NCBI GenBank assembly: GCA_045545475.1 | Contig: JAZQAZ010000050.1 | Span: forward strand, 1-14,695 | Direction: 5' to 3' | Length of the DNA: 14,695 nucleotides | From: Clostridia bacterium | GTDB taxonomy: Bacteria > Bacillota > Clostridia > CAKSNL01 > HGM11501 | Part shown: positions 1,674 through 14,695 of the stretch, piece after piece | Position numbering within the stretch: position 1 is the stretch's first letter | How the letters are laid out: each line of letters starts with the position of its first letter | The notes under the pieces: model-generated | The model's input: the letters and a program-made list of their open reading frames with translations, nothing else | The model's database searches: none | What the model was told of the DNA's origin: nothing | Program-made: the position numbers and the translations under genes

Positions 1674-1714
1674 TTTGAATACCTCCAAGATATAATGGTT
1701 TAATTGTTTTCACA

Positions 1715-1821: not shown

Positions 1822-1869
1822 AATGCAAATCCGGATTGCATTTTATAAAATATAGATTAAAGGTATAAT
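1822..1869 (+). promoter_or_regulatory. Candidate operator palindrome and -10 box for the amino-sugar operon
   Basis: AATGCAAATCCGGATTGCATT (1822-1842) is palindromic except for one extra A. TATAAT at 1864-1869 has a poor -35 (TTTTAT) at 17-nt spacing. Confidence 0.45.
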
Positions 1870-1891
1870 GCAAAATAAAGGAGGAAGTAAC

Positions 1892-3163
1892 TTGAGTAAG
1901 AAAATTTCTGTTGCAATACTTGGTTCCGGTTCGCGCGGATGTGCGTTTGGCCAGGAAGTGCAAAACGATAACGAGCGTTATGAACTTTCGGCTGTTTGTG
2001 ATATAAATCCCAAACAGCTTGCAAAAGCAAAAAAGCTTTTTAGTCTTTCTGACGAACAAATATTTTCAGATGAGGAAAGCTTTTTTTCGGAAAAAAGGGC
2101 TGATTTAATGGTTATTGCCACACATGACAAGTACCATGCTCGCCAATGTGTTCGAGCCATGAAAATGGGATATGATGTGTTTATGGAAAAACCAATCAGC
2201 GATTCAAGGGAAGAAATCTATGATTTGCTTAAAACACAAAAAGAAACAGGTAAAGTCGTTATGGTTTGCCATGAGCTCAGATATGGTCCTGCGTTTGATA
2301 AATTACACGACCTGATTATCGACAATGTTATCGGGGAGGTGGTAGCAATCGATGCCATGGAACGTGTAACATATTGGCATCAGGCTCAAGCCTATGTCAG
2401 AATACAATCGGAGGTTAATGATGTTGCACATCCGACGATACTTGCAAAATGCAGTCATGATTTGGATTTGCTGCACTATTATGCAGGGGCGGAATGCGAT
2501 ACTGTATCATCTGTCGGAGATCTGAAATTTTTCAGAATTCAAAATGCGCCGAAGGATTCAACGGAGCGGTGTTTGGAGTGCCCTCATGTCGACACCTGTG
2601 CTTTCAGTGCAAAAAGGATATATATAGACAGATGGAAGGAAAGAGGATGTCCTGAATTTGTTTGGCCGTTCAATAAGGTAACCTTAAAAATTCCTACGGA
2701 TGAGCAGGCTCTTTATGAGGGGCTGCGTAATACTTGTTTTGGTAAATGCGTTTTCCGATGCGGTGTGGAAAGCAATAAACACGTTGTTGATCATCAGTTG
2801 GTACAAATGATGTTTAAAAACGGTGTTGCGGCTACTTTGAAAATGGTGTTTGCCGGCGAGTCCGGAAGACGAATTAACATTTTCGGTACACACGGCGAGT
2901 TGCTTTTGGATGAGAGAAATGGAACTATTGAAGTATATCGCTACGGAGAGAAGAAAGAGGTTATAGAATTTAAAACCTTGATGGAGAACGGTCATAGTCA
3001 CGGAGGCGGAGATGTCCTAATAATAAAAGATTTGTATTCTGTTTTGAACGGGGGTGGGGAAGGCAGAACCTCGCTCATGGACTCTATAGAGGCTCATTTA
3101 ATGGGAATCAGTGCAGAAGAATCAAGATTAAATGGCGGAATTACGGTGAAGGTTCATGAATGA
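1892..3163 (+). CDS. Gfo/Idh/MocA-family NAD(P)-dependent oxidoreductase (423 aa)
   Basis: Rossmann motif ILGSGSRG, EKPI motif, KCSHDLD catalytic segment, C-terminal HGGGD. TTG start at 1892 preferred because AAGGAGG is at 1878-1884. Confidence 0.92.
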   Translation: MSKKISVAILGSGSRGCAFGQEVQNDNERYELSAVCDINPKQLAKAKKLFSLSDEQIFSDEESFFSEKRADLMVIATHDKYHARQCVRAMKMGYDVFMEKPISDSREEIYDLLKTQKETGKVVMVCHELRYGPAFDKLHDLIIDNVIGEVVAIDAMERVTYWHQAQAYVRIQSEVNDVAHPTILAKCSHDLDLLHYYAGAECDTVSSVGDLKFFRIQNAPKDSTERCLECPHVDTCAFSAKRIYIDRWKERGCPEFVWPFNKVTLKIPTDEQALYEGLRNTCFGKCVFRCGVESNKHVVDHQLVQMMFKNGVAATLKMVFAGESGRRINIFGTHGELLLDERNGTIEVYRYGEKKEVIEFKTLMENGHSHGGGDVLIIKDLYSVLNGGGEGRTSLMDSIEAHLMGISAEESRLNGGITVKVHE

Positions 3164-4349
3164 TTGCATTATTTTAAAAAATTGTAGGATCATAGGAGAC
3201 AGATCTATCCGGGAAGACAGCAGTATTTTGATTCAAAATGGTATTATTGCCGATATTAGTGATATTGCCGGGTTTGAAGCAAGTGAGTATGCAAAAGTAT
3301 ATGATATGAAGGGTAATTATGTCAGCGCAGGGTTTGTGGATATCCATACGCACGGTGGAGGCGGTGCTGATTTTATGGACGCGACAGACGATGCGTTCGA
3401 CACCGCTTTAGGATATCAGCTTGAAAACGGAGTTACGGGGGTGGTTGCAACCTCTCTGACTGCGGCATATGAGGATATATGTTGTTTTATGGACAAGGCA
3501 AGAGAATATATGGAGGTTCCGCACACCAAGAAGTCAAAGCTTCTTGGTGTGCATTTGGAAGGACCGTTTATATCTGTGAAAGGCTGCGGCGCACAAAATC
3601 CCAAATATCTTATGAATCCGAATAAAGATTCTTACAGCTTTATTATTAAAAACAGAGATATAATCAAAATAGTTACAATTGCGCCGGAATTGGACACGGA
3701 CGGGAGCATGACGCGGGAGCTTACTGAAAACGGCATTTTGGTGTCGGGAGGTCATGATGACGGTGCATATCCGGAATTTGTTCCTGCATTTAAGTCGGGT
3801 TTGAAACACATGACGCATATATATTGTGCAATGTCGGGTTTTGGAACAAAAGCAGGAGTCAGAGAAATAGGACTTAGGGAATATGGGCTTATGACAGATA
3901 ACGTCACCTGTGAAATTATTGCGGATAATATTCATATAACTCCCGAAATGGCAAGGTTTATTTTAAAGTATAAGGGGGCTGATAATGTTGCGGTGGTATC
4001 GGACTCGCTGCGATGCGCCGGTATGCCGGCAGACGGACGCTTATATAATCTGGGGTCAAAATACGACAGTGCATCGTTGAAAGTAAAGGTTTCCGACGGG
4101 ATTGCAATGCTTGCTGATGGCAGTAAGTTTGCCGGAAGCATAACAAGTGTGCATAAAATGGTGAAAAATTTGATAAATGCCGGTATTCCTGTTGTGGATG
4201 CGTTTAAGACGGGAACGTCGGTGCCGGCACGTATTATAGGTGAAAAGAAGATAGGCAGCGTTAAAAAAGGTTTTGCTGCTGATCTTTGTGAGCTTAATGA
4301 AAATTTCGATATTGTTTCGGTCTTTTTGGACGGAAAGAAAGTAAAATAA
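3156..4349 (+). CDS. nagA: N-acetylglucosamine-6-phosphate deacetylase family amidohydrolase
   Basis: GFVDIHTHGGGG, GVHLEGPF, VTIAPE, THIYCAM, IADNIH, VSDS, FAGS motifs. Overlaps the upstream gene by 8 nt. Confidence 0.9.
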   Translation: MNDCIILKNCRIIGDRSIREDSSILIQNGIIADISDIAGFEASEYAKVYDMKGNYVSAGFVDIHTHGGGGADFMDATDDAFDTALGYQLENGVTGVVATSLTAAYEDICCFMDKAREYMEVPHTKKSKLLGVHLEGPFISVKGCGAQNPKYLMNPNKDSYSFIIKNRDIIKIVTIAPELDTDGSMTRELTENGILVSGGHDDGAYPEFVPAFKSGLKHMTHIYCAMSGFGTKAGVREIGLREYGLMTDNVTCEIIADNIHITPEMARFILKYKGADNVAVVSDSLRCAGMPADGRLYNLGSKYDSASLKVKVSDGIAMLADGSKFAGSITSVHKMVKNLINAGIPVVDAFKTGTSVPARIIGEKKIGSVKKGFAADLCELNENFDIVSVFLDGKKVK

Positions 4350-4364
4350 ATTTTATGAAGGGAA

Positions 4365-5162
4365 ATGAACATTATGGAACACAATAAAATTAAGCTTAGA
4401 GTTTTAGAAAATGATGATGCAGTCAATTTGGATATGGCGCTTGATATGTTGGCGGAAATTATGAAAAATAATGAAAGGGGAAAGCGAACAGTATTTATTG
4501 TACCGGTTGGACCTACAAAGCAGTATTCGATTTTAGCGGCGATGGTAAATAAGCTTAATATTTCATTAAAAAACGTATGGTTTTTCAATATGGACGAGTA
4601 TCTCATATCTCCGACAGAAGCAATTTCGTCCGAACATTTTCTGAGCTTTAAAAAGCGCATGAATGACGAATTTTATGCGCGGGTTGATGAGGCGCTTATA
4701 ATGCCGAAGGAACAAAGGCTGTTTCCGATTCCGGGAAGAGAAAAGGAATATGATGAGCTTTTAAAATCTCTCGGTGGTGCGGATGTGTGCTATGGGGGAC
4801 TCGGCATTAACGGTCATATTGCGTTTAATGAGGCGGCAGAAAAGGATGATCCGATAACCTGTGAGGAATTTGCAAATCTCAGCACACGCGTGCTCCCGGT
4901 CAGCCGTGAAACAATAGCCATAAACGGAGCCGCATATCTACATGGAGATATTATGGCAATGCCGAAATGGTGTATCACAATAGGCATGAAGCAGATAATG
5001 GAATCAAAAAGAATTTATTTATCGACAGGTGCGGCATGGCATCCGGGAATATTAAAGCATGTACTTAACGACAAACCGCAGCCGCAGATACCGTCAACCA
5101 TTTTGCAAAAACACGGGAACGTATTATTCTGCACAAATAAAAGTATTGCGGAACTGATTTAA
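4365..5162 (+). CDS. Glucosamine/galactosamine-6-phosphate isomerase (NagB-like) family protein, atypical subgroup
   Basis: FFNMDEY, GGLGINGHIAFNE, ITIGMKQI, PSTILQKH motifs. Has PVGPT where canonical NagB has ATGST/PTGST. Confidence 0.85.
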   Translation: MNIMEHNKIKLRVLENDDAVNLDMALDMLAEIMKNNERGKRTVFIVPVGPTKQYSILAAMVNKLNISLKNVWFFNMDEYLISPTEAISSEHFLSFKKRMNDEFYARVDEALIMPKEQRLFPIPGREKEYDELLKSLGGADVCYGGLGINGHIAFNEAAEKDDPITCEEFANLSTRVLPVSRETIAINGAAYLHGDIMAMPKWCITIGMKQIMESKRIYLSTGAAWHPGILKHVLNDKPQPQIPSTILQKHGNVLFCTNKSIAELI

Positions 5163-5234
5163 CAGTGCGTTGGAAATGAACTGTTCATTGAGCAAAAAAA
5201 CGGGAATTGTGCACCTATATAACTGAAACGTGCA

Positions 5235-5263
5235 TGGACAAAACGTTGTAGGTATGTTATTTT
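5235..5263 (+). promoter_or_regulatory. Candidate sigmaA promoter for the 5300 ORF
   Basis: TGGACA (5235-5240), 17-nt spacer ending TGt, TATTTT (5258-5263). Confidence 0.45.
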
Positions 5264-5299
5264 GTTATTGAAGAGCGGATGTTGGAAATGGGGATTTGT

Positions 5300-5653
5300 A
5301 TGAAGTGTTTTCAAATCGATTTAAATGAGCTTCCTAAGGTTGCGTTGTGGGGAAAAAAAGACAGAACAATGCTTCCGGCACGCTTTGTGGCAGAAAGCCT
5401 CGGTGCTACTGTTACCTGGGATGAAGCAAGCAGAAAGGTTATTATTGCTAAAAACAGCCTTTTAATTGAAATTACCATTGACTCAGATACTGCTTTGGTA
5501 AACGGCAGAATTACGCCCTTGGATTCTCCGGCGTTTATAGAAAATGACAGAACATATATGCCTCTTCGTTTTATAGTTGAAAATCTCGGAGCGACTGTTA
5601 TCTGGGATAAGTCGGAGCAGAAAGTGACCATTACTGTTAAGTTTCCTGTTTGA
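5300..5653 (+). CDS. Copper amine oxidase N-terminal (stalk) domain protein, probably a fusion remnant (117 aa)
   Basis: Two internal repeats typical of this domain: DRTMLPARFVAESLGATVTWD and DRTYMPLRFIVENLGATVIWD. No signal peptide or other domain. ATG at 5300 follows GGGG; 5279 is an alternative start. Confidence 0.75.
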   Translation: MKCFQIDLNELPKVALWGKKDRTMLPARFVAESLGATVTWDEASRKVIIAKNSLLIEITIDSDTALVNGRITPLDSPAFIENDRTYMPLRFIVENLGATVIWDKSEQKVTITVKFPV

Positions 5654-5711
5654 TCAAAAAACTTCGTGTGTAAGCGGGAAAACAAATGCACAGAAGTCTA
5701 GATTGTCTTGC

Positions 5712-5750
5712 AAGCGACCTTTTGAATCAAAAAATTAAGAGGTCGCTTTT
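5712..5750 (+). terminator. Intrinsic terminator
   Basis: AAGCGACCT (5712-5720) pairs with AGGTCGCTT (5740-5748); the stem extends inward and is followed by a T-rich tail. Confidence 0.7.
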
Positions 5751-5795
5751 GTGTAAGTTTTGTCGTGTTTGTCTATTTAAAAAAATATAAGTATA

Positions 5796-5804
5796 TGTTA
5801 TGAT
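5796..5804 (+). promoter_or_regulatory. Extended -10 element for the large catabolic operon
   Basis: TGtTATGAT about 40 nt before the start at 5845. The -35 position reads TTTAAA (weak), compatible with activator dependence. Confidence 0.45.
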
Positions 5805-5844
5805 TAGGCTAGAATGATGAAGAAAAATATTTTGGAGGATTTAT

Positions 5845-6900
5845 ATGAAAAAAGTGCGTCTTGATGAACTTAAGGCTTTCTCCGTAAAGGCACTCGTTAA
5901 AGTGGGAGTAAGTGAAGAAAATGCAGAAATTATAGCCGATGTTTTAATGACAACTGATACTTTCGGTGTTTTAACACACGGGACAAAAAATCTGGGGCAG
6001 TATATAGATAAAATGAAGGCGGGCGGATTAGATGCTGAAGCCGAGCCATCAATAGTGAGAGAAGGACCTGCCTGGGCAATCGTAAACGGAAACAAGGCGG
6101 CAGGTATGGTTTCCGGATACAAGGCGATGAAGATGGCTATCCAGAAAGCTAAAAAAGTCGGTATTGCATATGTGGGAGTTAAAAACAGCTGTCACTTCGG
6201 TGCAGCAGGCTTCTATGCAAATCTGGCGGCAAAGGAAGGACTCATAGGCATATCTATGAGTAATGCTGATCCGGTTATTGCAGTTCCCGGAGGAAGCAAA
6301 AAAGCAATCGGTACTAATCCCTTTTCTTTTGCAGCACCGACTGGCGACGGAAAGAGTGTATTTTTAGATATTGCATTAAGTAATGTTGCGGCACTTAAGG
6401 TCATAATGGCGCAGGAGAAGAAACAGGAAATTCCCGACACCTGGCTGGTTGATGAAGAGGGCGTTCCTACGAAGGATGCTTACAAATTCCCGAAAAATGC
6501 AAGTCTTCAGCCTATGGGAGCACACAAGGGCTACGGCCTTGCGGTGCTGGTCGAAATTCTTGCTTCGGTAATAACCGGTGCGGGTATGCTTTCTGAGATA
6601 GCGAGCTGGAATCTGGATCTTGCATCCACCAATAATGCGGGACACGCATTTATTGCAGTTGATGTAGCTCAGATGATTGGCACAGATGAGTTTAATGCAA
6701 GAATGAAACAGGTCTCAGACGAGCTTAAAAACGGCCCAAAGGCAAAGGGTGCGTCAAGAATATTTATGCCCGGTGAAATGGAATGGGAAAAGAGAGATAA
6801 AGCTCTTGCTTCGGGTGAAATTGAAATCACCGATGCTATGGTGGCATCCCTTACAAAGCTTTCTTCCGATACAGGCGTGGAAATTAACATTTACGAATAA
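5845..6900 (+). CDS. Ldh_2-family (AllD/YiaK/ComC-like) 2-hydroxyacid dehydrogenase
   Basis: GVLTHG, NSCHFGAAG, IGTNPF, LDIALS, PMGAHKGYGL, MPGE motifs; GGAGG RBS. Confidence 0.92.
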   Translation: MKKVRLDELKAFSVKALVKVGVSEENAEIIADVLMTTDTFGVLTHGTKNLGQYIDKMKAGGLDAEAEPSIVREGPAWAIVNGNKAAGMVSGYKAMKMAIQKAKKVGIAYVGVKNSCHFGAAGFYANLAAKEGLIGISMSNADPVIAVPGGSKKAIGTNPFSFAAPTGDGKSVFLDIALSNVAALKVIMAQEKKQEIPDTWLVDEEGVPTKDAYKFPKNASLQPMGAHKGYGLAVLVEILASVITGAGMLSEIASWNLDLASTNNAGHAFIAVDVAQMIGTDEFNARMKQVSDELKNGPKAKGASRIFMPGEMEWEKRDKALASGEIEITDAMVASLTKLSSDTGVEINIYE

Positions 6901-6930
6901 TTAAATTTAATATATGAATGGAGAATTATC

Positions 6931-7584
6931 ATGGATAAAACAATGTACGGCATAATCAAAACAACAGCAATCTGCCCCATTATGGTGGCACCCGATCCCG
7001 ATTTTGCAGCTGATGCGGCAAAGGCAATTGCAGAGGGCGGTCTTCCCGTTTGTGAAGTTCTTCTTCACAGAGACGAGCATTCTGTTACAAGAATAAAGAA
7101 CATCGCTAAAAATGCACCCGAGGTAATTGTCGGTGCAGGTACTGTTATATCTTTAAGAGATGCCCAGGAGGCATTAGATGCCGGTGCAAAATTCTGTGTA
7201 GCTCCCGGCTTTGTTCCCGAGGTTGTTGAATTTTGCTTAAAGAACAACTTATCCATCCTTCCCGGATGCACAACAGCTTCCGAAATTTCAATGGCACTTA
7301 ACTACGGAATAAACATATTAAAGTTCTTCCCCGTATATCAGATGGGCGGAGTAGACACCCTTTCCCAGTACTATTACGGCCCCTTCGGTAAGGTTGAATG
7401 GGTTGTAACCGGCGGTCTTAACGGCAAGAACTATTTAGACCTCATCAAGTTCAACAGCGTGCTTGCGGCAGGCGGCGACTGGATGTTTGCCGAGAATAAT
7501 GCAATCAACGACAAAAACTACGATGCAATCGTTGAAAATATGAGAAGAACAATAAAGGATTCTCTCGCTGCAAGAGCGAAATAA
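6931..7584 (+). CDS. eda: KDPG/KHG aldolase (Eda) family, divergent
   Basis: VGAGTV, LPGCTTASE, Schiff-base Lys in LKFFP (K131), TGG and catalytic E42. GGDW replaces the usual GGSW. Confidence 0.85.
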   Translation: MDKTMYGIIKTTAICPIMVAPDPDFAADAAKAIAEGGLPVCEVLLHRDEHSVTRIKNIAKNAPEVIVGAGTVISLRDAQEALDAGAKFCVAPGFVPEVVEFCLKNNLSILPGCTTASEISMALNYGINILKFFPVYQMGGVDTLSQYYYGPFGKVEWVVTGGLNGKNYLDLIKFNSVLAAGGDWMFAENNAINDKNYDAIVENMRRTIKDSLAARAK

Positions 7585-7600
7585 GAAAGTGGGGCTTTTT

Positions 7601-8377
7601 ATGAGTTGCTCATTTGATTTTAAGGGTAAAACCGTTCTGATAACAGGTGCCGAGCGGGGAATTGGTCTTGAAATTGCAAAGGGCTTTGCAAAAAGAGGTG
7701 CAAATATTGTTATCGCAGGCATTATGGATGAGGAATTTCCCAATGCTGAAAAGGAAATAACAGCCCTTGGTGCAGAATGCTTTTGCATCCACACCGATGT
7801 GGCGGATGAAGAATCTGTTATAAATGCAGTTAGTAGTGCCTGGGACAAGTTTACAAAAATTGATATTCTTGTAAATAATGCAGGCATCAACAAGCTTGCA
7901 CCGGCAGAGGAAATGCCTCTTTCTACCTGGCAGAGAATTATGGATGTAAATTTAACGGGTACATTTTTAATGTGCCGTGAGGTGGGAAAAAGGATGCTTT
8001 CTGCGGGCGGCGGAAACATAGTTAACGTTGCCTCTATGTCGGGCCTTATCGTAAACCCCCTTCCGCAGACACAGTGTGCATATAACAGCTCCAAGGCGGG
8101 CGTTATTATGCTTACAAAGGTGCTTGCCAACGAATGGGCAGAGCGAGGCATAAGAGTAAACGCCATTGCTCCGGGCTTTACGGAAACACCCCTTACTGCA
8201 AAGAGACTTTCCGTGCCCGACGATCCTGCGGTTAAAAAATGGATTGGCGGAACACCTATGGGACGCGTGGCTCAGCCTTCCGAAATGGTGGGCCTTGTAT
8301 TATACTTTGCAAGCGACTTATCTACCTTTACAACAGGAACCTGCGTGCCCGTTGACGGCGGATATACAGTATTATAA
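7601..8377 (+). CDS. Short-chain dehydrogenase/reductase, polyol dehydrogenase/ketose reductase-like (258 aa)
   Basis: TGAERGIG, VNNAG, ASMSG, YNSSK, RVNAIAPG, VDGGY. ATG at 7601 preferred over GTG at 7589 because GGGG lies at 7591-7594. Confidence 0.92.
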   Translation: MSCSFDFKGKTVLITGAERGIGLEIAKGFAKRGANIVIAGIMDEEFPNAEKEITALGAECFCIHTDVADEESVINAVSSAWDKFTKIDILVNNAGINKLAPAEEMPLSTWQRIMDVNLTGTFLMCREVGKRMLSAGGGNIVNVASMSGLIVNPLPQTQCAYNSSKAGVIMLTKVLANEWAERGIRVNAIAPGFTETPLTAKRLSVPDDPAVKKWIGGTPMGRVAQPSEMVGLVLYFASDLSTFTTGTCVPVDGGYTVL

Positions 8378-8388
8378 GGAGAATGAAA

Positions 8389-9237
8389 ATGAAAAGCGTA
8401 AAAGATACTTTCAAAATATATAACGGTGTTGAAATTCCCTGCATGGGACTCGGCACCTGGCAGTCCCCCGACGAAACGGCGAAAAATGCGGTGCTTGCCG
8501 CACTTTCCCACGACTATCGCCTTATTGATACAGCTGCGGCTTACGGCAACGAAAAGGGTGTAGGCGAGGGAATAAAGGCAAGCGGACTTAAGAGAGAAGA
8601 AATTTTTGTTACAAGCAAGCTCCGCAACGCGGACCATGGCTACAAGGCGACGCTTGAGGCTTTTAATCTCACTATGGAAAAGCTTGACCTTGAGTATTTA
8701 GACCTTTATCTTATTCACTGGCCCAACCCCATTCAGTACAGAACACACTGGGAAGAGGCAACGGCCGGAACCTGGAAGGCTTTTGAGGAGCTTTACGAAA
8801 AGGGAAAAATCAAGGCAATCGGCATAAGCAACTTCCTTCCTCATCACATTGAAACACTTATGAAAACCGCAAAAATAAAGCCTATGGTAAATCAGCTTAA
8901 ACTATGCCCCGGCGTAACCCAGGACGAAACCGTTGACTATTGCAAAAAGCAGGGTATTGTGGTTGAAGCATACAGCCCCTTCGGAACTGGTATGATATTC
9001 GGCAACGAGGGTATGAAAAAGCTTTCTGCAAAATACGGAAAAACCGTTGGTCAGCTTTGTCTTCGCTGGTGCTTAGATAAGGAGTTTGTTTCCCTTCCCA
9101 AGTCGGCAAATCCCATGAGAATAAGAGAAAATGCAGAAATCTTTGACTTTGAGCTTTCAAAGGAAGACATTGACTTTATATCAAATCTTAAGGGAGTTTG
9201 CGGAGAAGCTCCCGACCCCGATAATATAATGTTCTAA
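8389..9237 (+). CDS. Aldo/keto reductase, 2,5-diketo-D-gluconate-reductase-like
   Basis: GLGTW and the catalytic tetrad in IDTA, YGNE, TSKL and IHWP, plus IGISNF and PKS. AGGAG (8377-8381) fits the ATG at 8389 better than the one at 8383. Confidence 0.93.
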   Translation: MKSVKDTFKIYNGVEIPCMGLGTWQSPDETAKNAVLAALSHDYRLIDTAAAYGNEKGVGEGIKASGLKREEIFVTSKLRNADHGYKATLEAFNLTMEKLDLEYLDLYLIHWPNPIQYRTHWEEATAGTWKAFEELYEKGKIKAIGISNFLPHHIETLMKTAKIKPMVNQLKLCPGVTQDETVDYCKKQGIVVEAYSPFGTGMIFGNEGMKKLSAKYGKTVGQLCLRWCLDKEFVSLPKSANPMRIRENAEIFDFELSKEDIDFISNLKGVCGEAPDPDNIMF

Positions 9238-9248
9238 GAGTTGATTTT

Positions 9249-10712
9249 ATGAGAATTAAAAACAAGGATGCTTTATCCTCCCACGGAAATATCGAGGGAA
9301 GAAAAATTGTAAGTGAGCTTCTTGATGCAGGGCTTGACTCCATCGACCCTTACTTAAGGGTAAAAAAGCTTATGGAGGTAAAAGAAGGTAAATTAATCTT
9401 TCATACCGAGGGCTTTGAAATGAAGGAGGATCCCCATTCGGGTGCACTTTCCTACAATCTTTCTGATTTTGACAGAATATTTGTAATCGGTGCGGCAAAG
9501 GGAATTCAGAGAGCCGCCCTTGCAATAGAAGAGGTGTTGGGAGATTATCTTACCGAAGGTCACGTCATAGGAAAGCACGGGGAAGATGTTATTTGCAAAA
9601 AAATCGGCGTGACATTGGCAGGACACCCCGTTCCCGACGAATACTGCATTGAAGGCTGCAGAAAAATTGAAGAAATGCTTTCTGATGTTACGGAAAAAGA
9701 CCTTGTCTTAACCGTTTTCGGCTCGGGCTGCGGCTCCCTTTTCACCTATCCTGCTGAGGGGATAACTATGGAGGATATTTCAAGGTTTACCCATATGATG
9801 CAGATTGAAAAGGGCGTTCCCACAAGTGACTTAAATCAGATAAGAACCCATATTGACCGTTTTAAGGGCGGAAGAATAACAAGGATGATAAAGAAGGCCA
9901 CCATAGTAAATATGGTAACGGCGGACCCATCCAAAATGTCAACCCCGGTTTTAAGGGTAAACTACTTTGAAATGCTCTGTCATAACACCTTTTTCCCTAC
10001 GGTTGCAACGGCATCAACCTATAAAGACTGCCTTGACATCATAAAAAAGTGGGATGCCTGGGATGAAACCCCGGAGTCTATAAAAAACCACCTTTTAGCG
10101 GGAGACAGTCATAACGAAAATATGTCGGTGGATGAATACGAAAGCTTTAACGCAAGATTTTTTGGTCTTGTTTTCAAGGATTCCACCATCTATCCGGCGG
10201 TAAGGGAAAAGGCAAAGGAGATGGGACTTCCTTGCATAATGCTTTCAGAGTATATGGAAGCGGAGGCAAGGGAAGCAGGCTTTGTGGACGGAAATTTAGC
10301 CCTTTGCTGTGAAAGGCTGGGCGAGCCCTTCCGTGGCCCCATTGTACTTATGTCATCAGGCGAAAATGTGGTAACCGTCGGCAAGGAAAGCGGCATCGGC
10401 GGAAGAAATCAGGAATATGCCATCGGCGCGGCAATGAAAATTGCAGGAAGCAAAAAGGTTGTAATCGGCGCTGTTGATACGGACGGTACCGACGGCCCCG
10501 GGGGATTTTCATATCCTGGTGCGCCTGAATGTTTATCCGGTGCCGTGGTTGACGGCTATACCTTGGAAGAAGCGAAAGAAAAAGGAATAAATCTCTGGGA
10601 TGCGCTTAAAACCCACGGAACAAGCGAGCCCTTGTGGAGACTTGATTCCGGCGTATGGGCGGAAAAGAGCATTTCGGCTCTTGATCTCAGAATAATTTTG
10701 ATTGGAGAATAA
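9249..10712 (+). CDS. Class II (MOFRL/DUF4147) glycerate-2-kinase-like protein, divergent
   Basis: VIGAAKG, AGHPVPDE, RFKGG, GGRNQE and DTDGTDGP motifs; several other motifs are altered. Confidence 0.88.
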   Translation: MRIKNKDALSSHGNIEGRKIVSELLDAGLDSIDPYLRVKKLMEVKEGKLIFHTEGFEMKEDPHSGALSYNLSDFDRIFVIGAAKGIQRAALAIEEVLGDYLTEGHVIGKHGEDVICKKIGVTLAGHPVPDEYCIEGCRKIEEMLSDVTEKDLVLTVFGSGCGSLFTYPAEGITMEDISRFTHMMQIEKGVPTSDLNQIRTHIDRFKGGRITRMIKKATIVNMVTADPSKMSTPVLRVNYFEMLCHNTFFPTVATASTYKDCLDIIKKWDAWDETPESIKNHLLAGDSHNENMSVDEYESFNARFFGLVFKDSTIYPAVREKAKEMGLPCIMLSEYMEAEAREAGFVDGNLALCCERLGEPFRGPIVLMSSGENVVTVGKESGIGGRNQEYAIGAAMKIAGSKKVVIGAVDTDGTDGPGGFSYPGAPECLSGAVVDGYTLEEAKEKGINLWDALKTHGTSEPLWRLDSGVWAEKSISALDLRIILIGE

Positions 10713-10714
10713 AT

Positions 10715-12016
10715 ATGTACGGTACAATTATTAAATCTGTAAGGGCACACCAGGTTTATACAAACCGTGGAAAGCCCGGTGTTGAAGTAATAGTAACCAC
10801 AGAAAACGGAAGCGAAGGAAGGGCAATGTGCACCTCGGGCGTATCGATCGGTACCCACGAGGTTGACTTTACCTTTGACGGCGGCACAAAGTTTGGCGGC
10901 AAAGGCGTAACAGGTGCGGCTAAAAGGGTTGAAGAGGTAATCGCTCCCGTAATTATCGGAATGGATTCAGCCCGTCAGGCAGAGGTTGATGCGGCAATCC
11001 TCGGTATTTGCCCCGATGCAAAAATCCGCCTTGGCGGAAATGCGGTTGCGGCAACAAGTGCGGCTGTGCTTAAAGCAGGTGCAGCATCGCTCGGCATTCC
11101 CTTATACCGTCATATCGGCGGTGCAGGTGCAATGTATCTTCCCGTTCCCGGCGTTGCGATGGCGGCAGGGGATGAGCGCTACGGCGGAGGAATCACCACC
11201 CCTGGCGGAAAACCCACAATGTCAATTATGGCATACGGCTTTGATAAGTTTTCCGATGCATCTTATGCATGCTGGGAAATTCACACACGCTGGGCGGAAA
11301 AAATGAAAAAGCTCTTTGGCGGTCTTCCAAATATCCGCGACTTTATCTCCATTCCTGCGGGAATTTTCAAAAGCGACAAGGAAATCTGGGAGGAAATGCT
11401 GAAAACCGTTATTGAAGCGGGATACGAAGGCAAAATCGGCTTCCAGATGGACGTTGCGACGGATACATATCACAACAAAGAAGACGATAAGTACTACGGT
11501 CTTTTCGATAAGGAGCCCAAGACCAAGGAACAGCTTTACGACTTCTATATGCAGATTATAAAGGACTATCCCTTTGTTATAATCGAAGATCCCTTTAATG
11601 AGGACGACTATGATACAACTGCCGCATTTACAAAGGAAAGCGGAATTCAGATAGTAGGGGACGACCTTTTTACCACCAACCCCAAAAGAGTGGCTCACGG
11701 AATAAAGAAGGGCGCGGCAAACACCGTTCTTCTCAAGGTTAATCAGGTGGGCTCCATTTCCGAGGCTCTTGAAATGATACAATATGCCTATAAGTTCGGT
11801 TACGGAATTATGCCTTCCGACAGCCGTGGCGAGGGCGAAACAATTGCAGACTATGCGGTGGGTATAAATGCAGGCTCAATCCGTGAAAGTGCCATAGGCG
11901 CAAGAGGAAACCGCTTCCTTGAAATTGAGGAAGAGCTTGGGGCATCTGCAAAATTCATCGGTGCACGCGGCCTTAAGGGCGAAAGAAACCTTCTGCGTGC
12001 CGACGGATTATTATAA
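10715..12016 (+). CDS. Enolase-like protein with remodelled active site
   Basis: Colinear with enolase (SGVSIGTHE, GKGV, LGGNA, PLYRHIGG, LPVP, MDVA, IEDP, QIVGDDLFTTN, LLKVNQVG, IADYAVG) but lacks NGGxH, QEF, GDEGG, SHRSGE and QIKTG. Confidence 0.88.
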   Translation: MYGTIIKSVRAHQVYTNRGKPGVEVIVTTENGSEGRAMCTSGVSIGTHEVDFTFDGGTKFGGKGVTGAAKRVEEVIAPVIIGMDSARQAEVDAAILGICPDAKIRLGGNAVAATSAAVLKAGAASLGIPLYRHIGGAGAMYLPVPGVAMAAGDERYGGGITTPGGKPTMSIMAYGFDKFSDASYACWEIHTRWAEKMKKLFGGLPNIRDFISIPAGIFKSDKEIWEEMLKTVIEAGYEGKIGFQMDVATDTYHNKEDDKYYGLFDKEPKTKEQLYDFYMQIIKDYPFVIIEDPFNEDDYDTTAAFTKESGIQIVGDDLFTTNPKRVAHGIKKGAANTVLLKVNQVGSISEALEMIQYAYKFGYGIMPSDSRGEGETIADYAVGINAGSIRESAIGARGNRFLEIEEELGASAKFIGARGLKGERNLLRADGLL

Positions 12017-12027
12017 GGAGGTATCTC

Positions 12028-13458
12028 ATGTTTAAACAGTATATAAACGGAAAACTGGTTGACGGTAATGGCAGGGAAATGCCTGTATATAACCCTGCAA
12101 CGGGAAAGGTAATTGACTCTGTGGGCTGCGCAGATGCATCTCAGACAAAGGAAGCGCTCATCGCAGCTGCGGAAGCTTTTAAAACCTGGTCTAAAACAAG
12201 CGTAAATGAAAGAGCAGCGTGGCTTTACAAGCTTAAGGAAGCCTGCACGGCTGAAAGAGATTATTTAATCGAGCTTGTAGCTTCAGAATCCGGAAGACCG
12301 TATGCAGCTGCCTGCGGCGATGTTGACTGGCTTCTTACAAGCCTTTCCTTCTATGCCGAGGAAGCAAAGAGAATTGAAGGCGAAGTAATTCCTCCCTTAA
12401 ACGTGGGCGGAAAGCTTAACTATCAGATAATCACAAAACAGCCGGTGGGTGTAACCGTTGGTCACCTTGCCTGGAACTATCCTTTAGGTAATGCCAGCAT
12501 AAAGCTTGCTCCCGCCATAGCATCAGGCTGTACCTGCATCATAAAGCCTTCCTCCGAAACACCCCTTGCAACACTTTATGTGGGCGTTATCGCAGAAAAG
12601 ATAGGCTTCCCGAAGGGGGTATTAAACATTCTTTCAGGTCCCTCTTCCGAGGTTGCAAAAACCCTTAACGAAAGCACCATTCCGAGACTTATTTCATTAA
12701 TCGGATCCTATGAAACGGGACTTAAGCTGATGGAGCAGGGCGTAACAAGCTTAAAGAAATATTCTCTTGAGCTTGGCGGAAACGCACCTGTTGTGGTTAT
12801 GCCCGATGCTGACCTTGACGAAACAGCGGCAAACATCGTTGCAAAAAAGGTTGGCTTTGCAGGACAGACCTGCGTTAACTATAACAGAATTTACATCCAC
12901 GAAAGCATTTATGATGTAATGTGCGAAAAGGTTAAAAGTGAGCTTTCAAAGGTTAAACTCGGCTCCTGGAAGGACGAGGGTTATATAATGGGTCCCGTAA
13001 TAAACAACGAGGCAAGGGACAGAATGCTTTCCCTTATTGAGGATGCAAAGGAAAAAGGCGCAAAGCTTGTTATGGGCGGAGAAGTTCCGGAAGAATTTTC
13101 CGAGGGAAGCTTTATAACACCTGCGCTTCTTATTGATGTAACTGACGATATGCGCGTTTCAACAGAGGAAATCTTCGGCCCCATCATTCCTCTTCAGCCC
13201 TTTAAGACCTTGGATGAGGCAATTAAAAAGAGCAACAATACAATCTTTGGCTTGTCCGCTTATTTCTTCGGACACAATGCAAAGGAAATGAGCAGATATT
13301 TTGAAAACGTTACAGCAGGCGAATTTTTCGTAAACGGCGGTATCGGAAGCGAATTTTCACCCCATTCAGGTGCAAAGCAGTCGGGTATCGGATGCGACAA
13401 GTCCAAGCATTCACTAGAGGAATACTACGATATCAAGTTCCTGTCTATGATACCGTAA
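12028..13458 (+). CDS. NAD(P)-dependent aldehyde dehydrogenase (GabD/SSADH-like)
   Basis: AWNYP, IKPSSETP, catalytic Glu in LELGGNAP, catalytic Cys in GQTCV, EEIFGP; AAGGAGG RBS. Confidence 0.94.
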   Translation: MFKQYINGKLVDGNGREMPVYNPATGKVIDSVGCADASQTKEALIAAAEAFKTWSKTSVNERAAWLYKLKEACTAERDYLIELVASESGRPYAAACGDVDWLLTSLSFYAEEAKRIEGEVIPPLNVGGKLNYQIITKQPVGVTVGHLAWNYPLGNASIKLAPAIASGCTCIIKPSSETPLATLYVGVIAEKIGFPKGVLNILSGPSSEVAKTLNESTIPRLISLIGSYETGLKLMEQGVTSLKKYSLELGGNAPVVVMPDADLDETAANIVAKKVGFAGQTCVNYNRIYIHESIYDVMCEKVKSELSKVKLGSWKDEGYIMGPVINNEARDRMLSLIEDAKEKGAKLVMGGEVPEEFSEGSFITPALLIDVTDDMRVSTEEIFGPIIPLQPFKTLDEAIKKSNNTIFGLSAYFFGHNAKEMSRYFENVTAGEFFVNGGIGSEFSPHSGAKQSGIGCDKSKHSLEEYYDIKFLSMIP

Positions 13459-13473
13459 AATATCGGAGGATTT

Positions 13474-14454
13474 ATGAGCGAAAAAAAGTATGATCTGATA
13501 GGCTTCGGCGATCCCTTTTTAGACCTTGTGCTGAAAATAGATAAGCTCCCCGAAACAAATACCAACTGTCGCATAAATAAATACGGCTTTCAGGGTGGCG
13601 GAAACGTACCCACAGCCTGCGTCGCATCTGCAAGACTCGGTGCAAAAACGGCGTTAATCGGTTGTGTGGGGGATGATTTATTCGGAAAAGTGGGACTTTC
13701 CGACCTTCAGTATAACAATGTTGACACATCAAAAATGAGTGTACAGAAAGGGAAAAAAAGCAATTTTTCCATCTGTGTGACAGAAACAGCCGTAAACGGT
13801 AAGGAATTTATCAGCACTCCCGGTGACTTTGAGGAAATAAAGACAGGCGAGCTTGATGAAGAATTCTTCAGGTCCACTCGCATTATGCACGTGGCATTAA
13901 TTACCGAAGCTGTGGCAAAGGCCTGCGATATGGTTCATTCCGCAGGCGGAAAAATAAGCGTAGATGCCAATTACTACCGTCCCTATACCTACGACTATTA
14001 CGATAAAATCGACATTTTCATAGGCTCCGAAATGTACTACAATGCATTTTGCGAAGATAAAAAATTAAATCCCGAAAACTTTAAGGAAAATATGGAGCTT
14101 TTAAAAAGCTACGGTCCTGAAATCGTAATATTCACCTTCGGACCTGACGGTTGCAAGGGCGTTTACGAGGATAAATATTTCGATATTCCGGCAATAGATG
14201 TAGATGTGGTTGACACCACCGGTGCGGGTGATGTTTTCCACGGTGCCTTTGATGTATTCTATCTTAAGGGCTTCGATGTGGAAAAAGCGGCACTTTATGC
14301 ATCCGGCGTATCTGCCATAAAATGCACACGCTCCGGAGGAAGAAGCGGAATTCCCACACTCCCGGTGCTTGAAAAATTTATTAAAACCGGTGAAATTGAC
14401 TATACGGAAATAGACGAGCGCGTTGCTCATTATGATAAAGGAATTACGTTATAG
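13474..14454 (+). CDS. PfkB/ribokinase-family carbohydrate kinase, YihV-like C-terminus
   Basis: GGGN...ARLGA...IGCVGDD, DTTGAGDVFHGAF and ASGVSAIKCTRSGGRSGIP; GGAGG RBS. Confidence 0.92.
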   Translation: MSEKKYDLIGFGDPFLDLVLKIDKLPETNTNCRINKYGFQGGGNVPTACVASARLGAKTALIGCVGDDLFGKVGLSDLQYNNVDTSKMSVQKGKKSNFSICVTETAVNGKEFISTPGDFEEIKTGELDEEFFRSTRIMHVALITEAVAKACDMVHSAGGKISVDANYYRPYTYDYYDKIDIFIGSEMYYNAFCEDKKLNPENFKENMELLKSYGPEIVIFTFGPDGCKGVYEDKYFDIPAIDVDVVDTTGAGDVFHGAFDVFYLKGFDVEKAALYASGVSAIKCTRSGGRSGIPTLPVLEKFIKTGEIDYTEIDERVAHYDKGITL

Positions 14455-14464
14455 GAGGTATACT

Positions 14465-14695
14465 ATGCTTGATTACAATGTAAAAATAGGACTTGTTCCC
14501 TTAAGACGTGACTGTACACCCCGTCCCGGTATCTTTAACTGGGAGGTTGCAGAGGAGAGAGGAAGACAGACTGTTGCCTACATCAAGGAGCATTATGCGA
14601 CAGAGCATATAAGCTTTGTTGACCTTAAGGGTGTTATCGATGTTGAAACACTCTGGTCTGAAAACGATGTTGAAAAGGTGGCAGAACACTTTAAG
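14465..14695 (+). CDS. Probable L-fucose/L-arabinose isomerase family protein (partial, runs off the window)
   Basis: Not in the ORF track. AGGAGG (14453-14458), ATG at 14465, then 77 open codons MLDYNVKIGLVPLRRD...SFVDLKGVIDVETLWSENDVEKVAEHFK. The KIGxxPxRR...FVD pattern resembles firmicute fucose-isomerase-like N-termini (from memory). Confidence 0.65.
   Translation, partial: MLDYNVKIGLVPLRRDCTPRPGIFNWEVAEERGRQTVAYIKEHYATEHISFVDLKGVIDVETLWSENDVEKVAEHFK

What the first reader, a model, noticed from the sequence alone, without database searches (positions are those of the whole stretch)
9249..12016. Co-diverged glycerate-2-kinase-like and enolase-like pair: candidate 'phosphorylate then eliminate' lyase yielding PEP from a 3-substituted lactate such as sulfolactate
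Seen: the two genes are 2 nt apart, the enolase RBS lies inside the kinase's last codons, and both proteins are full length with altered substrate motifs. Known: MOFRL kinases make 2-phosphoglycerate and enolase eliminates its 3-OH; ComA adds sulfite to PEP to give phosphosulfolactate. Inference: the pair runs the same two steps on a glycerate analogue whose C3 leaving group needs no general acid. (S)-3-sulfolactate, the sulfoglycolysis product with D-glycerate geometry, would give 2-phosphosulfolactate and then PEP plus sulfite. That would be a desulfonation route distinct from SuyAB, CuyA and glycyl-radical sulfolyases, and I do not know of a description of it. An amine or thiol leaving group, or phosphate elimination from a longer aldonate, are alternatives.
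Basis: partly seen in the sequence, partly recalled or inferred. Interest (0 to 1): 0.88.

Follow-up and report, generated by a model that had tools for sequence, protein, structure and literature searches.

The report
Kinase-coupled altered enolase gene pair
Two neighbouring genes in an uncultured gut bacterium encode a glycerate-kinase-like enzyme and an enolase look-alike that has lost the residues needed to dehydrate 2-phosphoglycerate; they probably first phosphorylate and then split a still unidentified small acid made from a sugar, and sulfolactate is the leading but unproven candidate.

Summary
The MOFRL-type kinase (9249-10712) and the enolase-like gene (10715-12016) lie 2 nt apart. 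The genome also has a canonical enolase and a class I glycerate kinase, so this pair is an extra one.

The enolase-like protein keeps the three metal ligands and the catalytic Lys. It has replaced every residue that handles the C3 hydroxyl. New Arg-Tyr, Lys-Pro and Ser-Arg motifs are invariant in its family.

In 45 of 53 family loci the kinase sits directly upstream. All five exception genomes tested (four with another gene upstream, one cut by a contig end) carry the kinase elsewhere.

The pair lies in a conserved operon of about 11 genes in gut and rumen Clostridia. Beyond the window, that operon has an isomerase, PfkB kinase, class II aldolase and DUF4867 set resembling sulfo-EMP2.

So "phosphorylate, then eliminate" is well supported. 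Sulfolactate stays plausible but unproven:
- no YihQ-type sulfoquinovosidase was found
- the known sulfonate-binding motifs are absent from the PfkB kinase and the aldehyde dehydrogenase
- only 11 of 35 genomes show a sulfite reductase domain

Rival substrates are sugar sulfate esters, L-glycerate and longer aldonates. I found no paper on this. The scan has flagged kinase/variant-enolase pairs before on other DNA.

The parts
9249..10712 (+). MOFRL-family (DUF4147+MOFRL) 2-hydroxy-acid kinase, 487 aa
   Evidence: Pfam. It scores far below the glycerate 2-kinase equivalog cut-offs. Best solved relatives are PH0495 (185 bits) and TM1585 (147 bits), and the GHPxPD, KGG, GGRNQE and DTDGTDGP blocks are kept. 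It is the only MOFRL gene in the genome.
10704..10709 (+). GGAGAA ribosome-binding site of the enolase-like gene, inside the kinase's last two sense codons
   Evidence: Sequence read.
10715..12016 (+). Divergent enolase-subgroup protein, 433 aa. Kept: Ser44, Asp246, Glu291, Asp317, Lys341. Replaced: His159->Arg155, Gln167/Glu168->Lys166-Pro-Thr, Glu211->Phe210, His373->Asp369, Arg374/Ser375->Ser370/Arg371, Lys396->Arg390 (canonical numbers are yeast enolase, recalled)
12028..13458 (+). Aldehyde dehydrogenase (succinate-semialdehyde dehydrogenase-like), the presumed source of the kinase's acid substrate
   Evidence: It is adjacent to the enolase-like gene in 44 of 50 close loci.
13474..14454 (+). 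PfkB-family sugar kinase
   Evidence: Best solved relative is sulfofructose kinase YihV at 98 bits, but its K27/N109/R138 triad reads N31/S114/L142 here.
14465..14695 (+). Start of a fucose/arabinose-isomerase-family aldose-ketose isomerase (463 aa in L003), cut by the contig end
   Evidence: (only curated relative: sulfoquinovose isomerase SftI, 108 bits against a cut-off of 700).
8383..9237 (+). Aldo-keto reductase (DkgA-like), a conserved operon member
   Evidence: Present in 43 of 50 close loci.
7589..8377 (+). Short-chain dehydrogenase (gluconate 5-dehydrogenase/KduD-like), a frequent operon member
   Evidence: Present in 28 of 50 close loci.
6931..7584 (+). KDPG/KHG-type class I pyruvate aldolase (Eda)
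   Evidence: TIGR01182, 175 bits, over its cut-off of 156. Present in 39 of 50 close loci.
5845..6900 (+). Ldh_2-family L-2-hydroxy-acid dehydrogenase
   Evidence: Nearest solved relatives are archaeal malate dehydrogenase 1v9n (230 bits) and L-sulfolactate dehydrogenase 2x06 (210 bits). Present in 40 of 50 close loci.
3156..5162 (+). NagA-like deacetylase (3156-4349) and divergent NagB-like deaminase/isomerase (4365-5162), accessory in about 10 loci

Best explanation
The two genes encode a dedicated 'phosphorylate, then beta-eliminate' pair. The MOFRL kinase uses ATP to put a phosphate on the 2-hydroxyl of a small 2-hydroxy acid. The enolase-like enzyme binds the resulting 2-phospho acid on its two Mg2+ ions, removes the C2 proton with the conserved Lys341, and expels the C3 substituent. 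The product is an enol phosphate, most likely phosphoenolpyruvate, so the ATP is recovered.

The acid comes from the aldehyde dehydrogenase encoded next door. That enzyme acts on the aldehyde released when a ketose 1-phosphate, made by the operon's isomerase and PfkB kinase, is cut by the class II aldolase.

The C3 substituent is probably anionic and a good leaving group. The leading candidate is the sulfonate of 3-sulfolactate, which would give PEP plus sulfite. The Ldh_2 enzyme plus an SDR or AKR (or a LarA-type racemase in minimal clusters) would set the C2 configuration.

Shown here: gene linkage, conservation, and the pattern of kept and replaced residues. Inferred: every chemical step and the substrate.

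My odds: about 0.6 that the pair works as a kinase followed by a lyase on a non-glycerate substrate, and about 0.3-0.35 that the substrate is sulfolactate.
For: Linkage:
- The kinase is directly upstream in 45 of 53 family loci and elsewhere in the locus in 2. Two loci are cut by contig ends and 4 have another gene there.
- The genomes of those 4, plus one cut locus, all hold a 42-69% identical kinase elsewhere: 5 of 5.
- A MOFRL::variant-enolase fusion (P0144, 908 aa) and an APH-kinase::enolase fusion (P0208) exist in other enolase branches.

Not housekeeping: the genome has a canonical enolase (635 bits against 278 for this one) and a class I glycerate kinase. In a sample of 400 other Bacillota genomes only 1 has a family member (573 bits); all other matches are canonical enolases at 315 bits or less.

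Active site: metal ligands, Lys341 and the Ser loop are invariant. Glu168, Glu211, His373 and Lys396 are replaced. Arg155-Tyr156, Lys166-Pro167, Ser370-Arg371 and Arg390 are invariant down to 53% identity. This removes two acidic and adds basic side chains around C3.

Context:
- The aldehyde dehydrogenase follows the enolase-like gene in 44 of 50 close loci.
- Downstream lie an SftI-like isomerase, a class II aldolase whose best solved relatives are the sulfofructose-phosphate aldolases 8q58/8q57 (183 and 179 bits, against 164 for the next), and a DUF4867 protein scoring 150 bits to SqvB.
- The nearest characterised relatives of Ldh_2 act on oxaloacetate or sulfopyruvate.
- Distant pairs sit beside LarA-type racemases, one of them nearest to malate racemase.

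Literature: four searches found no kinase/enolase route for sulfolactate. A January 2026 review lists the lyase SuyAB as the only enzyme that cleaves sulfolactate (sections 8 and 12 read).
Against: - No biochemical data exist for any family member.
- No YihQ-type sulfoquinovosidase: 0 of 34 cluster genomes over the model's cut-off and 26 of 34 with no match at 1e-30. These are incomplete MAGs, and even the E. coli control stayed under the cut-off.
- The window's GFO-family protein is not close to the NAD-dependent sulfoquinovosidase SqgA (29 bits).
- The YihV sulfonate triad K27/N109/R138 reads N/S/L in the PfkB kinase.
- The proposed sulfonate-binding Arg171/Arg289 of sulfolactaldehyde dehydrogenase read Ile158/Gly276 in the ALDH.
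- A siroheme sulfite reductase domain was found in only 11 of 35 cluster genomes.
- The Eda aldolase, present in 39 of 50 loci, and one of AKR or SDR have no role in the sulfolactate scheme.
- The recurring, consistently divergent NagA/NagB-like pair has no known sulfoquinovose counterpart.
- The invariant Tyr156 and Lys166 could act as a general acid, so a hydroxyl leaving group is not excluded.
Confidence: 0.35

Rival explanations
1. Sulfatase-free use of sugar 6-O-sulfates such as GlcNAc-6-sulfate or Gal-6-sulfate from mucins. NagA/NagB-like enzymes or the isomerase give a ketose 6-sulfate. PfkB and the class II aldolase give DHAP plus glyceraldehyde 3-sulfate. The ALDH gives 3-O-sulfoglycerate. 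The kinase phosphorylates C2, and the enolase-like enzyme expels sulfate to give PEP.
For: - NagA-like and NagB-like genes sit in the cluster in about 10 loci of different lineages. The NagB-likes are always atypical: 86-106 bits against a cut-off of 237, in 6 of 6 tested.
- PfkB, the class II (tagatose-bisphosphate-like) aldolase, NagA and NagB are all homologues of enzymes that handle 6-phosphate esters.
- The own genome has no sulfatase.
- Sulfate needs no acid to leave and is harmless, which fits the missing sulfite reductase in 24 of 35 genomes.
- CBM32 (F5/8 type C) surface proteins lie next to the cluster in L008.
Against: - The basic residues that I recall as binding the 6-phosphate in E. 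coli NagB (Arg172, Lys208) are Ala/Ile and Trp/Met in the cluster's NagB-likes.
- No anion-binding signature was seen in the PfkB kinase or the ALDH.
- No mucin-type glycosidases are conserved next to the cluster.
- I know of no precedent for such intermediates.
Confidence: 0.12
2. A mirror-image glycerate route. L-glyceraldehyde or hydroxypyruvate gives L-glycerate. The kinase makes L-2-phosphoglycerate, and the altered enolase dehydrates it to PEP using Lys166 or Tyr156 on the face where canonical enolase has Glu211.
For: - Ldh_2 enzymes make L-2-hydroxy acids (family knowledge; nearest relatives).
- The kept Lys341 plus a new invariant Lys/Tyr on the other side would suit an inverted substrate.
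- The isomerase belongs to the L-fucose/L-arabinose isomerase family, and L-rhamnose-mutarotase-like genes flank 6 loci.
- An earlier agent of this scan reached a glycerate reading for a related operon; part of that report later fell.
Against: - A racemase or a dehydrogenase pair would make the special enolase unnecessary, because the genome already has a D-glycerate kinase and an enolase.
- Loss of two Glu and gain of Arg and Lys points to an extra negative charge on the substrate.
- No abundant dietary source of L-glyceraldehyde is evident.
Confidence: 0.12
3. An ATP-neutral aldonate dehydratase. The ALDH oxidises an aldose to an aldonate. The kinase phosphorylates its 2-OH, and the enolase-like enzyme eliminates the 3-OH to give a phosphoenol-3-deoxy-aldonate. 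After phosphate transfer, PfkB and Eda process this as KDG, then KDPG, then pyruvate plus a triose.
For: - This gives roles to Eda (over its KDPG/KHG aldolase cut-off), PfkB, ALDH, kinase and enolase-like enzyme, which are neighbours.
- Enolase-superfamily members commonly dehydrate acid sugars.
- LarA homologues include sugar-acid epimerases (recalled).
- The enlarged, more hydrophobic C3 pocket (Phe210) could take a longer chain.
Against: - It leaves the isomerase, the class II aldolase, DUF4867, Ldh_2 and AKR without roles.
- It needs an extra phosphotransfer step with no candidate gene.
- All characterised MOFRL kinases act on glycerate (recalled).
Confidence: 0.12
4. An ordinary second glycerate 2-kinase and enolase isoenzyme pair for the glyceraldehyde branch of a non-phosphorylative Entner-Doudoroff-like pathway.
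For: Eda, ALDH, MOFRL kinase and an enolase are exactly the enzyme set of that branch.
Against: - Glu168, Glu211, His373 and Lys396, which are essential in canonical enolase (recalled mutagenesis), are all replaced.
- Both proteins score under their equivalog cut-offs.
- Housekeeping copies exist elsewhere in the genome.
Confidence: 0.04

Closest known systems
Canonical enolase (phosphopyruvate hydratase, EC 4.2.1.11; TIGR01060; e.g. M. jannaschii 2pa6)
   Same: Same two-domain fold by Pfam. It aligns over 411 residues (257 bits) and keeps the metal ligands, the catalytic Lys and the Ser loop.
   Different: It scores under the family cut-off. The residues around the C3 hydroxyl and two of the carboxylate/phosphate binders are replaced. 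There is a 4-residue insertion carrying Lys-Pro and a conserved C-terminal LKGxR tail. It is always linked to a MOFRL kinase.
Class II (MOFRL) glycerate 2-kinases (T. maritima TM1585 2b8n, P. horikoshii PH0495 1x3l)
   Same: Same DUF4147+MOFRL architecture. The GHPxPD, KGG, GGRNQE and DTDGTDGP blocks are conserved.
   Different: It scores 75-88 bits against equivalog cut-offs of 550-670. It is about 50 residues longer, and the region aligned to 'SDVVGDNLEAIASGPT' of PH0495 is rewritten and extended.
Sulfo-EMP2 sulfoglycolysis (SqvD/SftI isomerase, SqiK kinase, SqiA class II aldolase, SlaB dehydrogenase, SftX/DUF4867)
   Same: Same order of chemistry and the same families for the isomerase, aldolase, DUF4867 protein and ALDH.
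   Different: The kinase is PfkB, not PFK. The isomerase is a distant relative only. No sulfoquinovosidase was found. The known pathway stops at excreted sulfolactate or DHPS, whereas this operon adds the kinase, the enolase-like enzyme, Ldh_2, AKR, SDR and Eda.
Phosphosulfolactate synthase ComA (PEP + sulfite -> (2R)-phospho-3-sulfolactate) and sulfolactate sulfo-lyase SuyAB
   Same: ComA catalyses the reverse of the proposed lyase step. SuyAB is the known enzyme that eliminates sulfite from sulfolactate (ComA recalled; SuyAB in the review).
   Different: Neither belongs to the enolase family. SuyAB needs no phosphorylation and gives pyruvate, not PEP.
Two-dehydrogenase sulfolactate racemase (SlcC/ComC) and LarA-type 2-hydroxy-acid racemases
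   Same: Ldh_2 is ComC-like. LarA-like genes accompany the kinase/enolase-like pair in L052, L053 and G034.
   Different: Function here is inferred only.

Membership tests
Canonical enolase (TIGR01060 equivalog) | Score at or above the curated cut-off (300 bits) | tested here: not met
   278.7 bits. The genome's other enolase scores 635 bits.
Canonical enolase (TIGR01060 equivalog) | Three carboxylate ligands of Mg(I) and the catalytic base Lys345 | tested here: met
   Asp246, Glu291, Asp317 and Lys341 are aligned and invariant in the family.
Canonical enolase (TIGR01060 equivalog) | General acid Glu211 with Glu168 and His373 around the leaving hydroxyl, and Lys396 on the carboxylate | tested here: not met
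   Phe210, Pro167/Thr168 or Thr168/Met169 (the two aligners differ by one residue), Asp369 (variable in the family) and Arg390. The residue roles are recalled.
MOFRL glycerate 2-kinase | DUF4147 + MOFRL domain pair with conserved nucleotide/phosphoryl-transfer blocks | tested here: met
MOFRL glycerate 2-kinase | Equivalog-level similarity to characterised glycerate 2-kinases | tested here: not met
   88 and 75 bits against cut-offs of 550 and 670.
MOFRL glycerate 2-kinase | Phosphorylates D-glycerate at O2 | not testable with these tools
   Needs an enzyme assay.
Sulfo-EMP / sulfo-EMP2 gene cluster | Sulfoquinovosidase (YihQ GH31 or SqgA GH188) in the cluster or genome | tested here: not met
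   0 of 34 genomes over the cut-off and 26 of 34 with no match. The GH31 genes in L015 and L018 are closer to alpha-xylosidase. The window's GFO protein scores 29 bits to SqgA.
Sulfo-EMP / sulfo-EMP2 gene cluster | Sulfofructose kinase with the K27-N109-R138 sulfonate triad (YihV type) | tested here: not met
   N31, S114, L142.
Sulfo-EMP / sulfo-EMP2 gene cluster | Class II sulfofructose-phosphate aldolase (SqiA) | tested here: inconclusive
   The best solved relatives are SqiA from Hafnia and Yersinia, 183 and 179 bits against 164 for the next aldolase. SqiA binds the sulfonate mainly through backbone amides, so there is no side-chain signature to test.
Sulfo-EMP / sulfo-EMP2 gene cluster | Sulfolactaldehyde dehydrogenase with an Arg/Arg (or His/Asn) sulfonate pair | tested here: not met
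   Ile158 and Gly276 at those positions. The paper itself calls the pair incompletely conserved.
Sulfo-EMP / sulfo-EMP2 gene cluster | SftI/SqvD-type sulfoquinovose isomerase and SftX (DUF4867) | tested here: inconclusive
   The isomerase scores 108 bits against a cut-off of 700. DUF4867 is present and scores 150 bits to SqvB, but most DUF4867 proteins lie outside sulfoglycolysis.
Enolase superfamily, enolase subgroup | Enolase_N capping domain plus a TIM barrel with the base Lys at the end of strand 6 | tested here: met

The most novel reading that the evidence does not exclude
Uncultured gut and rumen Clostridia break down a sulfo-sugar completely inside one cell. The sugar is either sulfoquinovose or a sugar 6-O-sulfate. 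After an EMP-like split, the C3 sulfo-acid is phosphorylated by a MOFRL kinase. An enolase-derived lyase then removes the sulfur group as sulfite or sulfate and yields PEP. This would be a desulfonation or desulfation route using neither SuyAB, a glycyl radical enzyme, an oxygenase nor a sulfatase, and it would be the first new reaction assigned to the enolase subgroup of the enolase superfamily.
Probability: 0.4. Interest if true: 0.9.

Novelty: new variant of a known kind. Interest (0 to 1): 0.68.

Why it matters
As far as I recall, the enolase subgroup has been regarded as having one function. Here is a conserved branch with a rebuilt leaving-group pocket that is genetically tied to a kinase, so a new reaction can be tested directly with two proteins.

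If the substrate is a sulfo-acid, this would be a new route for releasing sulfur from plant sulfolipid sugar or host mucin sugars in animal and human guts. That bears on hydrogen sulfide formation and on who profits from green diets.

Even if the substrate proves otherwise, the 11-gene operon marks an undescribed sugar pathway that is widespread in uncultured gut Clostridia. One search listed 120 protein clusters at 83-100% identity, and one search found family loci in about 50 species-representative genomes.

Tried and rejected
- Ordinary glycerate kinase/enolase reading: rejected on residues, scores and the presence of housekeeping copies.
- GH31 genes near the cluster (L015, L018) as sulfoquinovosidases: they score higher on the alpha-xylosidase model.
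- The window's GFO-family gene as an SqgA- or GH109-type NAD-dependent glycosidase: only 29-44 bit matches to anything solved. It occurs in just 2 of 50 loci.
- The isomerase against solved structures: no hit.
- The unknown 686-aa protein next to the cluster in 5 loci: no Pfam or NCBIfam hit. The Atlas calls it a six-hairpin glycosidase. This is a lead only and does not name the sugar.
- Own-genome searches for a sulfite reductase domain (1 hit), TauE (present) and sulfatase (none): these families are too common, or too absent, to discriminate.
- Promoter and terminator scan: 36 promoter-like sites against 29.2 +/- 6.0 in shuffles, and no convincing plus-strand terminator inside 1868-14695. 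This is compatible with long operons but proves nothing.
- Sequencing runs: contigs from two RNA libraries of one study lie on several operon genes at 90-99% identity. No listed piece bridges the kinase/enolase junction, and DNA carry-over cannot be excluded. No run held half of the words, so I draw no conclusion about habitat or strain.
- Uronate, nonulosonic acid, tartrate, 3,6-anhydrogalactose and 6-deoxy-sugar schemes were worked through on paper. Each left more operon genes unexplained than the sulfolactate scheme, or gave a C3 acid with no leaving group.
- No structure prediction or complex prediction was run. The tools return no coordinates for measuring a pocket, and I make no claim that the two proteins bind each other.


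Full report
**What is in the window**

The window is a whole 14,695-base contig (C50) of a 2.74-Mb genome that is 95% complete. After a divergently transcribed AraC-type regulator (774-1688, minus strand), the remaining ORFs of 200 aa or more that match a protein family lie on the plus strand with short gaps:
- GFO/IDH/MocA oxidoreductase
- NagA-like deacetylase
- NagB-like protein
- a small Cu_amine_oxidN1-domain ORF
- Ldh_2 dehydrogenase
- Eda-type aldolase
- SDR
- aldo-keto reductase
- MOFRL kinase (9249-10712)
- enolase-like protein (10715-12016)
- aldehyde dehydrogenase
- PfkB kinase
- the first 77 codons of a further gene, starting at 14465

**The observation**

The kinase stops at 10710-12, and the enolase-like gene starts at 10715. 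GGAGAA at 10704-09 lies inside the kinase's last two sense codons.

Both proteins are full length: DUF4147+MOFRL for one, Enolase_N+Enolase_C for the other. Both are atypical:
- the enolase-like protein scores 278.7 bits against an enolase cut-off of 300
- the kinase scores 88 and 75 bits against glycerate 2-kinase cut-offs of 550 and 670

The genome has a canonical enolase on contig 29 (635 bits). It also has a class I glycerate kinase on contig 23 (474 bits) and no second MOFRL gene. The pair is therefore an addition, not the housekeeping route.

**The active site**

I compared the protein with M. jannaschii enolase 2pa6, with the genome's own enolase, and with family members down to 53% identity. 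Canonical numbers below are yeast enolase and, like the residue roles, are recalled.

Kept and invariant:
- the Ser of the lid loop (Ser44)
- the Mg ligands Asp246, Glu291 and Asp317
- the base Lys341

Replaced:

| Canonical residue | In this protein |
|---|---|
| His159 | Arg155, followed by an invariant Tyr156 |
| Gln167/Glu168 | lost in a 4-residue insertion carrying an invariant Lys166-Pro167 |
| Glu211 | Phe210 (Phe or Met in the family) |
| His373 | Asp369 (Asp, Glu or Ser in the family) |
| Arg374-Ser375 | Ser370-Arg371 (SRGEG is invariant) |
| Lys396 | Arg390 |

The machinery for making the Mg-stabilised enolate survives. The pocket that protonates and holds the C3 hydroxyl has lost two acids and gained basic and aromatic side chains.

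This fits a bulkier, negatively charged C3 group.

The kinase keeps the GHPxPD, KGG, GGRNQE and DTDGTDGP blocks of the solved relatives PH0495 and TM1585. It has a rewritten, longer segment where they read SDVVGD..IASGPT.

**Linkage of the two genes**

A scan of one genome per species returned 61 loci. Fifty-three of them carry a family member at 50% identity or more:
- 45 have the kinase orthologue directly upstream, with gaps of 2-102 nt
- 2 have it elsewhere in the locus: L024 after a 237-nt spacer, and L052 with an ABC transporter in between
- 2 are cut by contig ends
- 4 have another gene upstream

The genomes of those four, plus one cut locus, all contain the kinase elsewhere (42-69% identity, 5 of 5). 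In two of them it sits between the SDR and Ldh_2 genes of the same gene set.

Identities of the two proteins to the window decline together (r=0.95 over 47 loci). The loci are related, so this only illustrates co-inheritance.

The family is rare. Among 400 other sampled Bacillota genomes only one (G034) has a member, at 573 bits. Every other hit is a canonical enolase at 315 bits or less.

An all-against-all profile search of 1.84 billion representatives showed a few catalytic clusters of this type at the 50% level. It also showed paralogues that have lost the Lys, and other variant branches. Among those branches are a MOFRL::variant-enolase fusion (P0144) and an aminoglycoside-phosphotransferase-type kinase::enolase fusion (P0208). 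A kinase followed by an enolase variant is therefore a recurring design.

**The operon**

The conserved set is Ldh_2, Eda, (SDR), AKR, kinase, enolase-like gene, ALDH, PfkB, then an isomerase, a class II aldolase and DUF4867. The last three lie beyond the end of the window; I read them in the 99% identical locus L003.

Counts among the 50 loci at 70% identity or more are lower bounds, because many loci are cut by contig ends:

| Gene | Loci of 50 |
|---|---|
| Ldh_2 | 40 |
| Eda | 39 |
| SDR | 28 |
| AKR | 43 |
| kinase | 45 |
| ALDH | 44 |
| PfkB | 39 |
| isomerase | 36 |
| class II aldolase | 35 |
| DUF4867 | 15 |
| NagA-like | 9 |
| NagB-like | 10 |

What is known about the downstream genes:
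- The isomerase's only curated relative is sulfoquinovose isomerase SftI (108 bits against a cut-off of 700). The Atlas places it in the fucose/arabinose isomerase family.
- The aldolase's best solved relatives are the sulfofructose-phosphate aldolases 8q58 and 8q57 (identity of these entries confirmed in passages of PMC10665668).
- The DUF4867 protein scores 150 bits to SqvB from a Bacillus sulfoglycolysis cluster. Most DUF4867 proteins lie in other sugar clusters (passages of PMC11968277).
- PfkB's best solved relative is sulfofructose kinase YihV, at 98 bits.
- Ldh_2 is nearest to archaeal malate dehydrogenase and L-sulfolactate dehydrogenase.

The more distant pairs (L052, L053, G034) lack the sugar module. 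They carry a transporter and a LarA-type nickel-pincer racemase or isomerase next to the pair, and the G034 copy is closest to malate racemases.

**How it most likely works**

An aldose is isomerised, phosphorylated at C1 and split into DHAP and a C3 aldehyde. The ALDH makes the C3 2-hydroxy acid. The Ldh_2/SDR or AKR pair (or LarA in the minimal clusters) sets its C2 configuration. The kinase phosphorylates O2. The enolase-like enzyme removes the C2 proton and expels the C3 group, giving PEP.

3-Sulfolactate explains the most genes, 9 or 10 of 11. It also has a chemical precedent in the reverse ComA reaction (recalled).

I found no paper describing such a route. A January 2026 review of sulfoquinovose catabolism names SuyAB as the only enzyme that cleaves sulfolactate; I read its outline and sections 8 and 12.

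**Evidence against sulfolactate**

- No YihQ-type sulfoquinovosidase: 0 of 34 cluster genomes over the cut-off and 26 of 34 with no match at 1e-30. The genomes are MAGs, and the E. coli control also stayed under the cut-off, so the cut-off is unreliable in this six-frame search.
- The YihV K27/N109/R138 sulfonate triad (passages of PMC8006165) reads N31/S114/L142 here.
- The Arg171/Arg289 pair proposed for sulfolactaldehyde dehydrogenase (passages of PMC10599462) reads Ile158/Gly276.
- A sulfite reductase domain occurs in only 11 of 35 genomes.
- Eda has no role in the scheme.
- The NagA-like and NagB-like genes recur in about 10 loci. The NagB-likes are always atypical: 86-106 bits against a cut-off of 237, in 6 of 6 tested, with Asp141 replaced by Asn. 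No sulfoquinovose analogue of these steps is known.

These points keep three rivals alive. They are a sugar 6-O-sulfate route with sulfate as the leaving group, a mirror-image L-glycerate route, and 2-phosphorylation followed by dehydration of a longer aldonate feeding Eda.

**Earlier notes of this scan**

Other agents have flagged kinase/variant-enolase pairs on other DNA. Two of them also guessed sulfolactate, and one guessed glycerate, part of which later fell. I treated these notes as leads only. They do agree that the design is widespread and undescribed.

**Verdict**

The mechanistic idea of a kinase-coupled eliminating enolase is well supported by comparative evidence. The substrate remains open, with sulfolactate at roughly one in three. 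It is a new variant of a known kind of enzyme, with a realistic chance of marking a new sulfur-release pathway.

Noticed in passing
L056:3417-4697 (+), directly after the family member L056:2083-3417: This is a tandem second enolase-like paralogue, 36% identical to the window protein. The catalytic Lys is replaced (LRVQKY instead of LLKVNQ). Several 50%-level representative clusters (P0123, P0125-P0127, P0131) also lack the Lys. It may be a non-catalytic partner subunit.
   Followed up: partly
P0144 (908 aa), P0208 (745 aa), P0165 (845 aa): Three natural fusions were seen: MOFRL kinase::variant enolase, APH-type phosphotransferase::enolase, and phosphoglycerate kinase::canonical enolase (Pfam).
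   Followed up: partly
window 4365-5162 and L013, L018, L022, L026 counterparts: This is a distinct NagB-like subfamily, always far under the GlcN-6-P deaminase cut-off. Asp141 of E. coli NagB is replaced by Asn. The positions I recall as phosphate-binding (Arg172, Lys208) hold Ala/Ile and Trp/Met. Its substrate is probably not GlcN-6-P.
   Followed up: partly
L012:3436-5496 and counterparts in L011, L020, L031, L038: A 686-aa protein with no Pfam or NCBIfam match lies next to an AraC regulator at the head of the operon. The Atlas groups it with 'six-hairpin glycosidase' clusters. It may be the enzyme that releases the operon's sugar.
   Followed up: partly
window 5279-5653: A lone 124-aa ORF consists of a copper-amine-oxidase N-terminal-like domain and sits between the NagB-like and Ldh_2 genes. 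Large surface proteins with this domain plus F5/8 type C modules flank the operon in L008 and L011. It may be a remnant.
   Followed up: no
L006:10712-13500 and L026:16096-19000: An extra trio of a DHDPS/NanA-family aldolase, a second Ldh_2 (33-34% identical) and a second SDR is inserted beside the class II aldolase. It mirrors the Eda/Ldh_2/SDR set of the core operon.
   Followed up: no
window 1868-3163: This GFO/IDH/MocA oxidoreductase is 431 aa long and has a Cys-rich insert (CLECPHVDTC). It is found with the NagA/NagB-like genes only in L003 and L018. No close solved relative exists (best 44 bits).
   Followed up: partly
window 438-481 and 631-659: Two long perfect hairpins (20-bp and 12-13-bp stems) lie upstream of the AraC gene's end. 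They look like bidirectional terminators.
   Followed up: no
L022:16294-17262: An auxin-efflux-carrier-family permease sits directly after the class II aldolase in one Oscillospiraceae locus. It could be an exporter of an anionic end product.
   Followed up: no
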